From Chloroflexota bacterium (GTDB taxonomy: Bacteria; Chloroflexota; Dehalococcoidia; SM23-28-2; JACOUE01), in the NCBI GenBank assembly GCA_016178045.1, contig JACOUE010000041.1:5627-69626 (forward strand): 64,000 nucleotides of DNA, read 5' to 3'. The notes under the pieces are model-generated. The model did no database searches and was not told the DNA's origin. It worked only from the letters and a program-made list of their open reading frames with translations. Positions 7,857 to 13,133 of this stretch are shown piece after piece. The position numbers were made by a program, and so were the translations under genes. How positions within the stretch are numbered: the first letter of the stretch is position 1; each line of letters opens with the position of its first letter.

Positions 7857-9269
7857 ATGGGGCATAAGTCCCCCGGATTGGAAACCATGTCTGCTGACGC
7901 ATCCGCCGAGGTCGCTGCTGCCGGCCCTGTCGCGATCGACGAAGCGCACCTGATGCGCTCCGTCGTGCGTCTGGCCTGGCCGGTCGTCATCCAGCAGGTC
8001 AGCTTCACCATGGTCCAGTTGGTGGACACGTTCCTGGTCGGCCACCTGGGGGAGGACGCCCTGGCCGGCGTGGGGCTGGCGACCCTCATCTACTGGTTCC
8101 CCATCTCCGGCATGTTCGCCATCGGTATCGGCGCGACGGCGGTGGTGGCCCGCAACATCGGCGCCGGCCAACCCGAAAGGGCGGAGGCGGCCCTGCGCAG
8201 CGCCCTCCTCCTGGGAGTTGGCTGGGGCATCGCGACGGGCATCGTGTTCTTCGCGGCCGCCGCTCCCCTCCTGAACGTCATGGGAGCGGAGCCGCAGGCC
8301 CTGGACAAGGGCGTCCTCTACATGCAGGCGGCCGCTTTCGGGCTGCCCTTCTACACCGCCCTCTACATCGGCAACGCCTGCCTTCAGGGCGCCGGGAACA
8401 CGCGCACGCCGATGATCATCATGCTGCTGGTGAACTTGGTCAACGGCGTGGTCGCCTACCTCCTGATCAACGGGCCGGGGCCGTTCCCCGACTACGGCGT
8501 GAGGGGGTCCGGCCTGGGTTACACCGCGGCCGCCCTCGCCGGGACGGTCCTGGTGATGTTCTTCCTCGTGCGGGGCCGGAGCGGGCTCCAGTACCTTCCC
8601 CACAAGGCCTTGCTGCCCGACCGCGACGAGACGGCCCGGATCATGCGGGTGGGCATCCCCGCCGGGGCGGAGCAGTTCCAGTTCCAGTTCGCCTTCATGG
8701 CCTACACCCGCATCATCTCAAGCCTGGGCACGACGGCTCTGGCCGCCCACCAGGTCGCCCTCCGTATCGAGGGGCTGACGTTTCAGCCGGGGTTCGCCCT
8801 GGGGGTGGCCGCCACCACCCTGGTGGGCCAGAGCCTGGGCGCCCAGCGGCCGGACCTGGCCCAGAAGGTGGCCCTGACCGCCGTGCGCATCGCCTTTTTC
8901 GGCATGACGGCCGCGGGCATCGCCCTCATGGTCTTCGGCGGGCAGATCACTCAACTCTTCATTGCCGAGCCCGACGTAGTGGACACGGGCCGCAGGCTGC
9001 TGCTCATCTTCGGGTTTGCCCTGCCTGCCCTGGCCGTCGCCCTGGCCCTGGGCGGGGCCCTCCGTGGCGCGGGCGACACCCGGTCGGTGCTGGTAATCAT
9101 GACCGCCGGCGTCTGGGGTGTGCGTCTGCTCCCCGCCTACCTGCTGGCCGTGGTGGCCGGGCTGGGCGTGCCGGGGGCCTGGGTGGCTGCTGTCGTGGAC
9201 ATAAACTTCCGCGCCCTCTTGATGTTCGCCCGCTTCCGGCAGGGCAAATGGAAGACGATCAAGGTGTAG
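7857..9269 (+). CDS. MATE-family efflux transporter (start may be ATG 7887)
   Basis: About 12 hydrophobic segments; QGAGNTRTP and LRGAGDT repeats; GKWK C-terminus. Confidence 0.92.
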   Translation: MGHKSPGLETMSADASAEVAAAGPVAIDEAHLMRSVVRLAWPVVIQQVSFTMVQLVDTFLVGHLGEDALAGVGLATLIYWFPISGMFAIGIGATAVVARNIGAGQPERAEAALRSALLLGVGWGIATGIVFFAAAAPLLNVMGAEPQALDKGVLYMQAAAFGLPFYTALYIGNACLQGAGNTRTPMIIMLLVNLVNGVVAYLLINGPGPFPDYGVRGSGLGYTAAALAGTVLVMFFLVRGRSGLQYLPHKALLPDRDETARIMRVGIPAGAEQFQFQFAFMAYTRIISSLGTTALAAHQVALRIEGLTFQPGFALGVAATTLVGQSLGAQRPDLAQKVALTAVRIAFFGMTAAGIALMVFGGQITQLFIAEPDVVDTGRRLLLIFGFALPALAVALALGGALRGAGDTRSVLVIMTAGVWGVRLLPAYLLAVVAGLGVPGAWVAAVVDINFRALLMFARFRQGKWKTIKV

Positions 9270-9368
9270 CCCGCCGTTCATCGCCTCGCCGGCACTCCCT
9301 GGCATCTCCCCTCGGGCGCCTTCAGGAGCGAGCGAGTGGTAAAATATACTTTCGTTGGAGGAGGGCCC

Positions 9369-9593
9369 TTGGCCAAGGTTATCCTGTACTCCCTGCGCGG
9401 CTGACCCACGAGCGATAAGGCCCGGGTTGGCCTTACCTCGCAGGGGATCGAATTCGAGGAGCGCCTGGTCGACGACAACCCCGACTGGTGGGACGAGGCG
9501 CTCAGGTACTCGATCACCGTCCCCGTCGTCATCTGGGGCGACGGCGACGTTGAGATCGGCTGGCAGGGCGAGCACGGCTGAGAGATCACCTAG
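9369..9593 (+). CDS. Glutaredoxin-like selenoprotein with two predicted Sec residues (U12 in UPTS; U71 in C-terminal GUEIT)
   Basis: RBS GGAGGAG, TTG 9369; MAKVILYSLRG-U-PTSDKARVGLTSQGIEFEERLVDDNPDWWDEALRYSITVPVVIWGDGDVEIGWQGEHG-U-EIT, TAG at 9591; Grx-like pattern with TVP cis-Pro motif; hairpin 11 nt after each UGA. Confidence 0.85.
9416..9435 (+). promoter_or_regulatory. Putative SECIS element 1
   Basis: TAAGGCC-CGGGTT-GGCCTTA perfect 7-bp stem after an 11-nt spacer from UGA 9402-9404. Confidence 0.75.
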
Positions 9594-9609
9594 GGGGCCG
9601 GGAGCCCTC
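9593..9609 (+). promoter_or_regulatory. Putative SECIS element 2
   Basis: GGGGGC-CGGGA-GCCCTC stem after an 11-nt spacer from UGA 9579-9581; loop also begins CGGG. Confidence 0.65.
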
Positions 9610-9642
9610 CGCAAACCGATAGATCGGGCGACGTCGGCGGCA

Positions 9643-11149
9643 ATGCTCCGGATCTTCAACACCCTCACGCGCTGTAAGGAGCAGTTCGAGCCCCTGGAGG
9701 CGGGGCACGTCGGCATGTACACCTGCGGGCCGACGGTGTACCGCTTCGCCCACATCGGTAACCTGCGGTCGTACCTGCTCGCGGACTGGCTGCGGCGGAC
9801 CCTCGAGGGGCAGGGCTACCGGGTGACCCACGTCAAGAACATCACCGATGTGGGCCACATGCGCCAGGACATGCTGGACCGGGGCGAGGACAAGGTCATC
9901 GCCGCCGCCCGGGCCGAGGGCAAGACGCCGCAGGAGATCGCCCAGTTCTACACCGACGCCTTCATGCAGGACGAGGCCAGGCTCCAGGTGCTCCCTGCCC
10001 ATATCTTCCCCCGCGCCACCGATAACGTCTCCGAGATGGTAGACCTGACGCGGACCCTCTTCGAAAAGGGGTTCGCCTACGAGCGACGGGGCAACGTCTA
10101 CTTCGAGGTCGAGCGCTTTCCGGAGTACGGCAAGCTCTCCGGCCAGGTGGGGGAGGGCCTCGCCGAGGGGATGCGGGCCGCAGCCGACCCCCTGAAGAAG
10201 AGCCAGCGCGACTTCGCCCTCTGGAAGGCCGCCGAGCCGGGGCGGCTGCTGAAGTGGCCGTCCCCTTGGGGCGACGGCTTTCCCGGCTGGCACATCGAGT
10301 GCTCAGCCATGTCTCGCAAGTACCTGGGACAGCAGATCGACATCCACACCGGCGGCGTCGACAACGTCTTCCCCCACCACGAGGACGAGATCGCTCAGAG
10401 CGAGGCCGCCTTCGGCAAGCCGTTCGTGGGCTACTGGGTGCACGGCCAGCACCTCCTGGTGGACGGCCTGAAGATGGCCAAGTCCACCGGCAACACCTAC
10501 ACCCTGGAGGACCTGGAGCGACGCGGTTTCGAGCCGCTGGCCTTCCGCTACCTCTGTGCCACCGTCCACTACCGCTCGCGCATGAACTTCACCTTCCGCT
10601 CGCTGGCGGCCGCCCAGCGGGGGCTCCTCCGCCTCCGCGGGCACGCCCAGGCGGCGGACGGCAGCGTGGCGAAGCGGGCGTCGCGCGAAGCGGATCGCTG
10701 GCGCAAGGGCTTCCAGGCCGCCCTGAACGACGACCTGAACCTCCCCCGCGCCCTGGCCGCCGCCTGGCAGGTGGCCCGCGACAGCCTGCCCGCTCCCCTC
10801 AAGCGCGAGCTCCTCCTGGAGTTCGACCGGGTGCTGGGGCTCGACCTCGACCGCAGGCCGGAACTGCCGTCTCTCCCTGCGGAGGTGGAGCGCCTGGCCG
10901 CCGAGCGCACCAGGCTCCGGCGCGGCGGCGACTACGCCCGCGCGGACGAGCTACGCGCCCGCGTCATCGCCGCTGGCTTCGAGGTGCGGGATGGCCGGGA
11001 CGCCGCGCTGATCCTGCCCGCGCCCGCCTGGGCCCGGCCCTCGGCCGTCATCTCGTCGAGTCAAGACGTACCGTCGCGGTTGGAGGAGCCGGCGGCGCTG
11101 GAGTGGACGGTTGTCCTCGTCGCCCGCGAGGACCGCGCGGAGGCGGAAC
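9643..11149 (+). CDS. cysS: Cysteine--tRNA ligase followed by a linker into a glycosyltransferase domain (frame breaks near 11149; the uncorrected frame reads on to 11757)
   Basis: MLRIFNTL, CGPTVY..AHIGN, DFALWK, GWHIECS, HHEDE, KMAKS, ADELR anticodon-binding region. Confidence 0.9.
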
Positions 11150-11686
11150 AAGCGGGTCCGGGTCTTCCACGCCGACCACAACCTGGGCGCGGCCGCCGCT
11201 CGCAACGTGGGGCTGCGCCAGGCCCGCGGCCAGATGCTGGTACTGTTGGACAGCAGCGTCGAGGTAACGGGCGACGCGTTCTCGAGCCTAGGAGGGCTAC
11301 TGTCGGAAGGCCGCGTGGGCGTTGCCGGCCGCTGGGGCCTGGTGACGTCCGACCTGCGCAGCTTCGACGAGACGGAGCAGCCGGGCGAGGTGGATGCCAT
11401 CGAGGGCTACATCATCGCCCTGCGGCGGGAGCTGGTGAGGGAAGTCGGTCTCCTGGACGAGAAGTACCGCTTCTACCGCCACCTCGACCTCGACCTGAGC
11501 TTCGCCGTGCGCAGCCGCGGCTACCGGCTCGTCATCGATACGGACCTGCCCCTTGCCCGCCACCAGCACGGGGAGTGGGAGCGAACCCCGCCGGAGGAGC
11601 GCGACCGCCTGAGCAAGCGGAACTTCTACCGCTTCCTGCGCAAGTGGGGCGACCGCACCGACCTCCTGCTGGCCGGGGCGCGGTAG
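11111..11686 (+). pseudogene. GT2 glycosyltransferase C-terminal part, out of frame with cysS
   Basis: NLGAAAARNVGL, LLDSS, GLLDEKY, DLDLSF motifs; first strand WTVVLVA lies in the cysS frame and the intervening segment seems missing. Confidence 0.75.
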
Positions 11687-11687
11687 G

Positions 11688-13133
11688 TTACCCCAGCGCC
11701 CCCAGATCCACGGCCATCTGCCAGATCTCGTCGGGGGTGAAGAAGGTAGTACGGTAGTTCGCCCAGCGGTCGGCGGCGGCGTCGTACTCGCCGTCGTAGG
11801 CGACCTGGACGCGGTCGTATATCTCCTTGACCACGCGGCTGACGCTGGAGAAGCGAACCGTGAGGTCGCGCCGCTCCGCCTCCCGGTTCAGGATCGAGAC
11901 GATCCCCTCCGCGCCGGACAAAGCGCCGATGACGCTGCGTTCGGCTTCTTCCTGCCCCACGATGGACGGGTCGTAGGGGAGGTAGATGAGGCCGCCGGGG
12001 GCCTGCTCCTGCTTCACCACGCCGGCCTGGTGGATCCCTGCCTGCGTGGTGAACACGTCGCCAACGATGGGCGCGTTGTGGGGGACGGGGGCCAGGAACT
12101 CCTCAAAGAGACGGCCCATCTCCCCCAGGCAGGTCAGCTCGAGGCCGGGGTCGCCGTAGAGACGGATGTAGCCGGCGAGCACCTGCTCCAGCGAGGTGTT
12201 GCCGGTGCGCTCGCCGATGCCGGCAAAGGTGACGTTGACCTTCTTGCAGCCGTACTGCCAGGCGGCTAGGGCGTTGGCGGTGGCCAGGCCGAAGTCGTTG
12301 TGGCCGTGAAACTCCAGCTCCGCGCCCGTCTCCTGCTTGAGGGTCGATACCAGGCGGGGGACGCCGTAGGGAAGGGCGGCGAAAGGATCGGGCACGCCCC
12401 AGCCGATGGTGTCGCAGATGCGGAACTTGGCCATGCCCTCGGTCGCCTCGAGCACCTCCTGCATGAAGGGGATCACCCACCCCTCGACGTCGGCGCGGGT
12501 GGTGTCCTCCAGGTGGACGCGGGGGGTGATGCCGTACTCGCAGGCGGTGAGGATGGGCCGGAGGTACTTGTCGACGGCGTCCTCTTTGCTGTGGAAGCCC
12601 AGCTTGTCGAAGATGTGGTGGTCGGACGACGAGGCGAGCATCCCCGTCTCCTTGACGCGGCCTTGGCTGGCGTCGTGCAGGTCCTTCACGTCCTTGGGAT
12701 TGGCGCGGATCCAGGTGGTGATCTTGGGGAACTCGTGCTCGCGGTCCAGGAGCTTGTCGAGCACCCACAGGTCGCGCTTCTGGTAGATGAACGTCTCGAT
12801 CGAGTACATGACGCCGGTGCCCGCGTCCAGGTCGTGGAGGAGGTCGACGTAGCGGAGGCGGGCCTCGCTGGGGAAGAGGGGGAAGCGGGAGTCCTGGGCG
12901 CCGTCGCGGAGCGTGGTGTCGGTGATGAGCTTGGGGAGGTCCTCCGGGCCCTCCAAGGGTAGCTCGGCGGGCTCCAGTTCCAGCTCGATGTGAGGGAACT
13001 GGCCCTGGAAGTTATGGTAGACGCGCGCCGGGTTTACGGCGGCCCTGGGGATAGTCGGCGGTTCCATGACGGTGAACTCGACGTAAGGCGTGTTAATTGT
13101 AGCAAAGCGTATCGGATTTGTTATAGCTGCCAT
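11688..13133 (-). CDS. DRE-TIM metallolyase, Re-citrate synthase-like (LeuA/homocitrate synthase family)
   Basis: ITDTTLRDGAQ, TWIRA, KETGML..SDHHIF, PRVHLEDTTRAD, HGHNDFG, GIGERTGN. Confidence 0.8.
   Translation of the reverse strand: MAAITNPIRFATINTPYVEFTVMEPPTIPRAAVNPARVYHNFQGQFPHIELELEPAELPLEGPEDLPKLITDTTLRDGAQDSRFPLFPSEARLRYVDLLHDLDAGTGVMYSIETFIYQKRDLWVLDKLLDREHEFPKITTWIRANPKDVKDLHDASQGRVKETGMLASSSDHHIFDKLGFHSKEDAVDKYLRPILTACEYGITPRVHLEDTTRADVEGWVIPFMQEVLEATEGMAKFRICDTIGWGVPDPFAALPYGVPRLVSTLKQETGAELEFHGHNDFGLATANALAAWQYGCKKVNVTFAGIGERTGNTSLEQVLAGYIRLYGDPGLELTCLGEMGRLFEEFLAPVPHNAPIVGDVFTTQAGIHQAGVVKQEQAPGGLIYLPYDPSIVGQEEAERSVIGALSGAEGIVSILNREAERRDLTVRFSSVSRVVKEIYDRVQVAYDGEYDAAADRWANYRTTFFTPDEIWQMAVDLGALG

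What the first reader, a model, noticed from the sequence alone, without database searches (positions are those of the whole stretch)
9357..9609. Unannotated glutaredoxin-like protein with two selenocysteines, each with its own SECIS-like hairpin
Seen: RBS GGAGGAG, TTG 9369, and a 74-codon frame with UGA at codon 12 (G-U-P-T-S, where Grx has CxxC/CxxS) and codon 71 (H-G-U-E-I-T-stop). Each UGA is followed after exactly 11 nt by a stem-loop whose loop starts CGGG. Known: bacterial SECIS elements lie just 3' of the UGA (about 11 nt in E. coli fdhF), and Grx-like proteins with Sec near the C-terminus ('UXX-star' type) have been described. Inference: this protein has both an active-site UxxS and a tail Sec, possibly forming a diselenide or an internal redox relay. 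It lies directly upstream of cysS.
Basis: partly seen in the sequence, partly recalled or inferred. Interest (0 to 1): 0.85.

Follow-up and report, generated by a model that had tools for sequence, protein, structure and literature searches.

The report
Glutaredoxin-like protein with two selenocysteines
A tiny redox protein gene in a groundwater Dehalococcoidia genome carries two in-frame UGA codons that are almost certainly read as selenocysteine; it is a real but so far unrecognised side branch of a selenoprotein family that is already known.

Summary
TTG 9369 opens a 74-codon frame with TGA at 9402 (codon 12) and 9579 (codon 71), ending at TAG 9591. Each TGA is followed after 11 nt by a hairpin whose loop starts CGGG. 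The genome has selA, selB, selD and tRNA-Sec. In 63 parsed homologues from Dehalococcoidia genomes, the tail position is TGA in 55 and Cys in 6. The active-site position is a Cys codon in 57 and TGA in 6. Nine double-TGA sequences were found in all, and a tree needs at least 5 separate switches. The tail hairpin covaries (0 of 500 shuffles) and none passes the hairpin rule where the TGA is absent. Support for hairpin 1 is weaker: a motif rule favours it, but fold energy and a covariance model do not. Contigs from two further runs reproduce both TGAs. The predicted fold is glutaredoxin/NrdH-like without the last helix. The closest family is NCBIfam Uxx-star (48.6 bits, cut-off 66). Canonical Sec members have U plus 2 residues; here there are 3. 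A two-Sec Grx-like family is already in print, so this is a new variant, not a new kind. Database proteins of this clade are cut at the tail TGA. The gene sits between a MatE gene and cysS in 39 of 47 loci. A selenenylsulfide or diselenide relay is inferred, not shown.

The parts
9357..9363 (+). Shine-Dalgarno-like GGAGGAG, 5 nt before the TTG start
   Evidence: Sequence
9369..9593 (+). 74-codon gene of the glutaredoxin-like double selenoprotein (TTG start, TAG stop)
9402..9404 (+). UGA 1, codon 12, active-site position (U-P-T-S). It aligns with the invariant Cys of the CxxS/CxxC motif in homologues.
   Evidence: a Cys codon in 57 and TGA in 6 of 63 parsed homologues; three further TGA forms.
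9412..9441 (+). Hairpin 1, putative SECIS inside the coding region: upper stem 9416-9422/9429-9435, loop CGGGUU 9423-9428, lower stem 9412-9415/9438-9441
   Evidence: z -2.45. Motif rule. Not supported.
9579..9581 (+). UGA 2, codon 71, tail position (G-E-H-G-U-E-I-T-stop)
   Evidence: TGA in 55, Cys in 6 and Arg in 2 of 63 parsed homologues
9593..9609 (+). Hairpin 2, SECIS of the tail UGA: stem 9593-9598/9604-9609, loop CGGGA. The stem begins at the last base of the TAG stop.
   Evidence: covariation 0.394 against 0.150 shuffled, 0 of 500; 30 of 55 TGA forms pass the rule, 0 of 8 non-TGA forms.
9643..11757 (+). cysS (cysteine--tRNA ligase), 49 nt after the stop on the same strand; a conserved neighbour
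   Evidence: TIGR00435, 415.8 bits; same arrangement in 39 of 47 loci.
7857..9269 (+). MatE-family efflux gene, conserved upstream neighbour

Best explanation
The locus 9369-9593 encodes a 74-residue glutaredoxin/NrdH-fold selenoprotein. Both in-frame UGAs are read as selenocysteine by the genome's own SelA/SelB/SelD/tRNA-Sec system. Each UGA has its own hairpin 11 nt downstream: one lies inside the coding region, the other starts at the stop codon. Sec12 takes the place of the nucleophilic Cys of the CxxS/CxxC motif. Sec71 sits on a short tail that replaces the usual C-terminal helix. Inferred, not shown: the tail Sec acts as the resolving partner of the active-site residue. That would give a selenenylsulfide in most relatives and a diselenide here, so the protein works as a small redox relay. 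It is probably co-transcribed with cysS. I put the identity and the decoding of both UGAs at about 0.85, and the relay mechanism at about 0.4.
For: Sec machinery in the same genome: selD 372.7 bits with its own in-frame TGA, selA 566.8 bits, selB 308.4 bits, tRNA-Sec 79.3 bits with anticodon tca. Family: Pfam Glutaredoxin 36.4 bits (cut-off 22.9); NCBIfam Uxx_star matched over 1-69 of 70 positions, E 6.9e-13. Fold: AF2 model with pLDDT 96.5; Foldseek TM 0.76-0.80 to cGrx1 and NrdH. Tail site: TGA in 27 of 30 order relatives, 42 of 44 GTDB loci and 55 of 63 parsed ORFs, with Cys in 6 and Arg in 2. Three residues and then a stop follow in all 30 and all 44. The tail hairpin covaries: 75.7% of cells paired against 60.3% shuffled, score 0.394 against 0.150 (0 of 500 shuffles), slid controls at most 0.184. 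The hairpin rule is met in 30 of 55 TGA forms and 0 of 8 non-TGA forms. Active-site position: a Cys codon in 57 and TGA in 6 of 63, plus G231, L142 and L144, making 9 double-TGA sequences. On a tree of 64 rows the 8 double forms included need 6 changes, at least 5 of them forced. A CGKG-loop hairpin 14-24 nt downstream occurs in 6 of 9 TGA forms against 6 of 57 Cys forms. With at least 5 bp the figures are 5 of 9 against 1 of 57. There is no internal start codon. Contigs of runs X2 and X3, which are not flagged as the source, match 9341-9626 and 9219-9490 with no differences. For the relay: the two Arg-tailed forms both have CPTC, and the second motif position is often Ser where a tail Sec or Cys is present.
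Against: Hairpin 1 is not distinguished by fold energy: the mean is -11.4 kcal/mol in 6 TGA forms against -11.7 in 57 Cys forms, p 0.75. A covariance model built from 51 tail hairpins did not find hairpin 1 at E <= 10. It ranked hairpin 2 only third in the window (21.4 bits, E 0.16), below two hits that do not follow any in-frame TGA. Three of 9 double forms lack a hairpin by the rule, and one Cys form (L037) has a 7-bp hairpin. The selD SECIS of this genome has a different loop. None of the 10 best other 'TGA plus CGKG hairpin' sites in the genome lies in a recognisable selenoprotein, so the loop motif is not a genome-wide mark. Runs X1-X3 come from one study and are contigs, not reads. There is no RNA or protein evidence. 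The relay is pure inference, because no distance between residues 12 and 71 could be measured.
Confidence: 0.8

Rival explanations
1. Only the tail UGA is a Sec codon. TGA 9402 would then be a nonsense mutation (dead gene), a strain variant or an assembly error in this MAG.
For: The active-site position is a Cys codon in 57 of 63 parsed homologues. Hairpin 1 is not set apart by fold energy or by the covariance model. All three runs that hold the stretch come from one study.
Against: The same codon is TGA in eight other sequences from at least five tree positions. Six of the 9 double forms have a CGKG-loop hairpin at the same distance. Contigs of X2 and X3 carry the TGA with no differences. The 59 codons after the TGA remain fully homologous, at 54-70% identity to relatives.
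Confidence: 0.08
2. Both residues are Sec, but they do not form a redox relay. The selenols, together with the neighbouring His in this clade, bind a metal or metalloid, or carry selenium or sulfur.
For: [quoted passage not shown] The tail has H-G-U in this order.
Against: The His is not kept in the wider clade: R, I, L, W and M occur before G-U. The fold and the CxxS/CxxC position are those of thiol-disulfide oxidoreductases. No metal-resistance genes stand next to it; the neighbours are MatE and cysS.
Confidence: 0.25
3. Neither UGA is decoded. Gene callers are right to stop at the tail TGA, and this copy is simply not expressed.
For: All 8 database proteins of the clade end just before the tail TGA.
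Against: Three conserved codons plus a stop follow the TGA in all 30 and all 44 loci. Cys replaces it in 6 homologues. The hairpin behind it covaries, and none passes the hairpin rule in the 8 forms without the TGA. The Sec machinery is complete.
Confidence: 0.02

Closest known systems
NCBIfam NF041212, Uxx-star family glutaredoxin-like (seleno)protein
   Same: A protein of about 70 residues with a Grx-like fold, an N-terminal CxxC/S-type motif and a Sec or Cys a few residues before the C-terminus. It matches over the full profile length (1-69 of 70). The family is common in the same class: over the cut-off in 61 of 401 genomes.
   Different: The score is 48.6 bits against a cut-off of 66, and the best of 29 clade members has E 1e-17, by my estimate about 65 bits. 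In the 12 canonical loci read, all 8 Sec forms have U plus 2 residues plus a stop (G-G-G-U-x-I). This clade has G-U plus 3 residues in 30 of 30 and 44 of 44 loci. The conserved MatE-gene-cysS setting was seen for this clade only; I did not examine the setting of canonical members.
UXX-star selenoprotein family 1, 'Distant Grx-like protein 1' (NF041114)
   Same: Table 1 of the 2026 review (PMC13188914, passages seen) lists it with the motif UxxT and 2 Sec residues. That is the same architecture: an active-site Sec plus a tail Sec in a Grx-like protein.
   Different: The score here is only 26.3 bits against a cut-off of 72. In the class sample only 2 of 401 genomes pass that cut-off, and the one I read with a TGA is a single-Sec CPYC form. 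I saw no family-1 double-Sec sequence myself; the claim rests on the review's table.
HUGP/GUXX-star fusion selenoprotein (NF045501)
   Same: Its C-terminal half aligns with this protein (positions 165-234 of 236, 37.6 bits), and it is also listed with 2 Sec (review table).
   Different: It is a 236-residue fusion with a cut-off of 325 bits. Here there is no HUGP domain.
Selenoprotein glutaredoxin of Clostridium (cGrx1, PDB 7c10) and NrdH redoxins
   Same: They are the best structural matches: TM 0.76-0.80 and rmsd 1.1-1.9 A. A UxxC active-site Sec is known in Grx (review passage).
   Different: They have a C-terminal helix and no tail Sec. That cGrx1 is the Cys version of a selenoprotein is my recollection, not a result of any call.
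C-terminal Sec tail of animal thioredoxin reductase (works like, not a member)
   Same: A Sec a few residues from the C-terminus on a flexible tail shuttles electrons to or from a buried redox centre. This is recalled knowledge.
   Different: It is an unrelated flavoprotein with a different tail motif and eukaryotic SECIS decoding.

Membership tests
NF041212 Uxx-star Grx-like (seleno)protein | HMM score at or above the curated cut-off (66 bits) | tested here: not met
   48.6 bits. All 29 clade members hit the model, with best E 1e-17, by my estimate about 65 bits.
NF041212 Uxx-star Grx-like (seleno)protein | Sec (or Cys) followed by two residues and the stop | tested here: not met
   Here U-E-I-T-stop. 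The clade has 3 residues after U/C/R in 30 of 30 and 44 of 44 loci. The canonical Sec forms have 2 residues in 8 of 8.
NF041212 Uxx-star Grx-like (seleno)protein | Small glutaredoxin-like fold with an N-terminal CxxC/S-type motif | tested here: met
   Pfam Glutaredoxin 36.4 bits; AF2 pLDDT 96.5; Foldseek TM 0.76-0.80 to Grx and NrdH.
NF041114 UXX-star selenoprotein family 1 | HMM score at or above the cut-off (72 bits) | tested here: not met
   26.3 bits.
Bacterial selenoprotein gene (general) | selA, selB, selD and tRNA-Sec present in the genome | tested here: met
   all are above their curated cut-offs.
Bacterial selenoprotein gene (general) | The in-frame TGA aligns with Cys in homologues, and TGA recurs in other genomes | tested here: met
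   Tail: 55 TGA and 6 Cys of 63. Active site: 6 TGA and 57 Cys of 63. Three more double forms.
Bacterial selenoprotein gene (general) | SECIS hairpin just 3' of the tail UGA | tested here: met
   Covariation. The rule is met in 30 of 55 TGA forms and 0 of 8 others.
Bacterial selenoprotein gene (general) | SECIS hairpin just 3' of the active-site UGA | tested here: inconclusive
   Present here (z -2.45). The rule is met in 6 of 9 TGA forms against 6 of 57 Cys forms. Fold energy does not separate them, and the covariance model misses it.
Bacterial selenoprotein gene (general) | Incorporation of selenium shown in the protein | not testable with these tools
   No RNA holder was listed and no proteome is available.

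The most novel reading that the evidence does not exclude
In the double-Sec forms, Sec12 and Sec71 close an intramolecular diselenide. That would make a very low-potential natural redox switch that has arisen repeatedly from the Cys/Sec form. The protein would work with its conserved operon partner CysRS, for example by keeping cysteine or persulfide chemistry reduced, or by handling selenium near the Cys-charging step. The tail SECIS sits in the 26-97 nt gap before cysS, which could tie cysS translation to selenium supply.
Probability: 0.1. Interest if true: 0.7.

Novelty: new variant of a known kind. Interest (0 to 1): 0.45.

Why it matters
The finding adds an unrecognised clade to the Grx-like tail-Sec selenoproteins. 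The clade is widespread in Dehalococcoidia: 54 of 65 genomes of the order have a match. Public gene calls either cut these proteins at the tail UGA or, for the double-Sec forms, probably miss them altogether. This matters for counts of selenoproteins in groundwater and soil Chloroflexota. The repeated Cys-to-Sec switches at the active site give a natural series for asking what a second Sec buys. In 16 of the 27 tail-Sec relatives a UGA stop lies four codons after the Sec UGA. If that reading holds, it would show in nature how SECIS spacing sets which UGA is recoded. The kind of protein itself is already in print.

Tried and rejected
Fold energy as a test of hairpin 1. Cys forms fold as well in this GC-rich DNA, so the test has no power.

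Covariance model R1, built from 51 tail hairpins. It found hairpin 2 only as rank 3 of 47 hits and did not find hairpin 1. Its two best hits do not follow any in-frame TGA. I rejected it as a detector.

Genome-wide pattern 'TGA, 14-24 nt, stem of at least 5 bp, CGKG loop'. It gave 89 sites. The 10 with the longest open frames were translated with TGA read as U. None showed a family spanning the TGA. So this route found no further selenoproteins and no genome-wide loop consensus. The selD SECIS looks different.

Rfam on 9250-9750 gave no match. The promoter and terminator scan of 9150-9800 found none, so the operon with cysS is inferred from spacing and synteny only.

No RNA holder was listed for the stretch.

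The Haft and Tolstoy 2025 paper that defines the UXX-star families is not held. I saw only passages of the 2026 review (PMC13188914) and of Zhang and Gladyshev 2008 (PMC2398784). Supplements are closed and may list members of this clade. The only full-text search for the family name was 'UXX-star', which found 1 paper. One search added nothing. So 'not described as such' rests on these searches alone.

One label in the tree ('SU', L052) is an artefact of my regular expression. That protein reads G-C-S-T-S. G231 and L047 were not parsed by the expression and are missing from the counts.

G296 was flagged as unpublished. It enters only the tallies of that call (203 and 61 of 401). No specific claim rests on it.

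Full report
WHAT IS THERE

The window carries GGAGGAG at 9357-9363 and TTG at 9369. A 74-codon frame runs to TAG 9591-9593, with TGA at 9402 (codon 12) and 9579 (codon 71). Read with TGA as U, the protein has the motif G-U-P-T-S near its N-terminus and ends G-E-H-G-U-E-I-T. There is no in-frame ATG, GTG or TTG anywhere after the first codon. Codons 13-70 can therefore only be made by reading through TGA 9402. In this genome TGA closes 832 of 2063 long open frames, so it is a normal stop there and not a reassigned codon.

- Hairpin 1 starts 11 nt after UGA 1. It has a 7-bp upper stem, the loop CGGGUU and a 4-bp lower stem (9412-9441). Its z-score is -2.45, and 5 of 200 shuffles fold as well.
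- Hairpin 2 starts 11 nt after UGA 2. It has a 6-bp stem and the loop CGGGA (9593-9609), and it begins at the last base of the stop codon. Its z-score is about 0.

THE GENOME CAN MAKE SELENOPROTEINS

The window lies in a 2.03-Mb assembly of 85 contigs, 89.8% complete. Titles of related records name Chloroflexota and Dehalococcoidia MAGs. The runs that hold the stretch are groundwater metagenomes. The assembly contains all four parts of the Sec system:
- selD, 372.7 bits, itself with an in-frame TGA
- selA, 566.8 bits
- selB, 308.4 bits
- tRNA-Sec, 79.3 bits, with anticodon tca

WHAT THE PROTEIN IS

Pfam Glutaredoxin scores 36.4 bits against a cut-off of 22.9. The best NCBIfam model is NF041212, the 'Uxx-star family glutaredoxin-like (seleno)protein'. 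It matches end to end (1-69 of 70) but at 48.6 bits, below its cut-off of 66. UXX-star families 1, 2 and 3 and the HUGP/GUXX-star fusion follow, each far below its own cut-off.

An AlphaFold2 model built on 29 relatives has pLDDT 96.5. It shows strand-helix-strand-helix-strand-strand and then an extended tail instead of the usual last helix. Foldseek puts it next to cGrx1 (7c10), NrdH (4f2i, 4hs1, 4fiw) and BC3987, with TM 0.76-0.80. No match reaches E <= 0.001, as may be expected for so small a domain.

THE TAIL UGA

- Order level: 54 of 65 genomes have a homologue. Of these, 47 have one TGA inside the match, 2 have two and 5 have none.
- Direct translation of 30 loci shows G-(U/C/R)-x-I-x followed by a stop in all 30. 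The position is TGA in 27, Cys in 1 and Arg in 2.
- A pattern scan of the GTDB collection gave 44 loci, with TGA in 42 and Arg in 2. These largely overlap the genomes above.
- Across 63 distinct ORFs parsed from order and class genomes, the tail codon is TGA in 55, Cys in 6 and Arg in 2.

The hairpin behind the tail UGA changes sequence but keeps its pairing. On 51 distinct sequences, 75.7% of cells pair against 60.3% in shuffles. The covariation score is 0.394 against 0.150 (0 of 500 shuffles reach it), and slid controls give at most 0.184. Among the 27 order sequences aligned the loop is mostly CGUGC, CGGGC or CGUGA. A simple rule (CGKG loop 14-24 nt after the codon, at least 4 bp) is met in 30 of 55 TGA forms and 0 of 8 non-TGA forms. 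Fold energy is also lower in the TGA forms (-13.45 against -9.0, p 0.017), though related sequences are not independent.

This is a well-supported Sec codon with its SECIS.

THE ACTIVE-SITE UGA

The codon aligned with 9402 is a Cys codon in 57 of the 63 ORFs and TGA in 6. Further double-TGA forms are G231 and two metagenome contigs, L142 and L144. That makes nine in all: G000, G014, G183, G199 (two loci), G215, G231, L142 and L144. On a maximum-likelihood tree of 64 distinct proteins, the eight double forms included need 6 changes of state, at least 5 of them forced by well-supported branches. The Cys/Sec switch at the active site has therefore happened repeatedly. This is the classic signature of a Sec/Cys pair and is hard to reconcile with a sequencing error.

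Contigs assembled from two other runs of the same study cover 9341-9626 and 9219-9490 with no differences. A contig from another study keeps TGA 9579, while hairpin 2 carries a base change and an inserted base.

HAIRPIN 1 IS THE WEAKER POINT

In favour: the CGKG-loop rule is met in 6 of 9 TGA forms against 6 of 57 Cys forms. With at least 5 bp it is 5 of 9 against 1 of 57. The stems differ between lineages, for example between this genome and the G014/G215/G231 type.

Against:
- Fold energy does not separate TGA forms from Cys forms (-11.4 against -11.7, p 0.75).
- A covariance model built from the tail hairpins does not find hairpin 1 at all. It ranks hairpin 2 below two unrelated GC-rich hairpins.
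- The loop motif is not a mark of SECIS elements across this genome. The selD element differs, and the ten best other 'TGA plus CGKG hairpin' sites are not selenoprotein genes.

I therefore call hairpin 1 a probable SECIS, not a demonstrated one.

SURROUNDINGS

A MatE gene lies upstream (7857-9269) and cysS downstream (ATG 9643; TIGR00435 415.8 bits). cysS follows on the same strand 26-97 nt after the gene in 39 of 47 loci of the order, so the tail SECIS fills most of the gap. No promoter or terminator consensus was found between them. Co-transcription is an inference.

HOW IT PROBABLY WORKS

Shown or strongly supported:
- two Sec codons
- a Grx/NrdH fold
- a tail in place of the last helix

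Inferred: in Grx-type folds the chain leaving the last strand runs back towards the active site (recalled knowledge of the fold). A Sec eight residues further on could then reach residue 12. The second motif position is often Ser in forms with a tail Sec or Cys, and the two forms with an Arg tail both have CPTC. This fits the tail residue acting as the resolving partner, giving a selenenylsulfide in most relatives and a diselenide here.

The main functional rival is metal or metalloid binding, as the 2026 review suggests for UXX-star proteins (PMC13188914, passages). The His before the tail Sec is not conserved in the wider clade. That weakens, but does not exclude, this rival.

COMPARISON WITH WHAT IS KNOWN

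Uxx-star Grx-like selenoproteins are curated in NCBIfam. [quoted passage not shown] The architecture 'active-site Sec plus tail Sec in a Grx-like protein' is therefore already in print. I did not see a sequence of that family, and the defining paper (Haft and Tolstoy 2025) is not held.

Canonical Uxx-star genes are common in this class: over the cut-off in 61 of 401 genomes. In the 12 loci I read, all 8 Sec forms end G-G-G-U-x-x-stop. The clade studied here differs in four ways:
- It has one more residue after the Sec.
- It falls below every curated cut-off.
- It has a conserved position before cysS.
- In the large protein collection it is represented only by unnamed products of 44-70 residues that stop just before the tail TGA. 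The best is 73% identical and none corresponds to this gene.

VERDICT

This is a real and well-supported double selenoprotein gene. It is a new variant of a known kind and is of moderate interest.

Noticed in passing
window 9643-11757: The cysS open frame is 704 codons. TIGR00435 covers only residues 2-452, and the last 250 or so residues hit no Pfam or NCBIfam family. This could be a C-terminal extension, or a frame kept open by GC-rich sequence or a lost stop.
   Followed up: partly
L026-L050 (relatives): In 16 of the 27 relatives with a tail Sec codon, the real stop four codons later is also TGA (U-E-I-T-TGA), right at the foot of the SECIS stem. If that reading holds, the nearer UGA is recoded and the next one terminates.
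   Followed up: partly
L026 (G001), active-site region: This Cys form carries a perfect 6-bp hairpin at the place where the double-Sec forms have hairpin 1. It may be a relic of a lost SECIS or a chance product of the K-A-L-R-A-L codons.
   Followed up: no
P0008: A 44-residue NCBI protein, 77% identical to residues 29-70, begins just after the first third of the fold and ends before the tail TGA. It may be the remnant call of another double-Sec gene closer to this one than any genome searched.
   Followed up: no
G000:C16:13088-14023 (L001): The selD gene of this genome is itself a selenoprotein gene (motif G-G-U-A-S-K). Its hairpin has a different, A-rich loop.
   Followed up: partly
window 9338-9351: There is an AT-rich stretch (TGGTAAAATATACT) in otherwise GC-rich DNA, about 20 nt before the RBS. 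By eye it looks like an extended -10 element, but the consensus scan found no promoter.
   Followed up: partly
window 9599-9605, run X5: A relative from another groundwater study has A9603G plus an inserted C after 9604 in hairpin 2. By my reading this still allows a stem with a shorter G-rich loop.
   Followed up: no
G344, G410, G377, G199: Several genomes of the class carry two paralogues of this clade, sometimes side by side. Tail states are mixed: Sec next to Cys in G344 and Cys next to Cys in G410.
   Followed up: no
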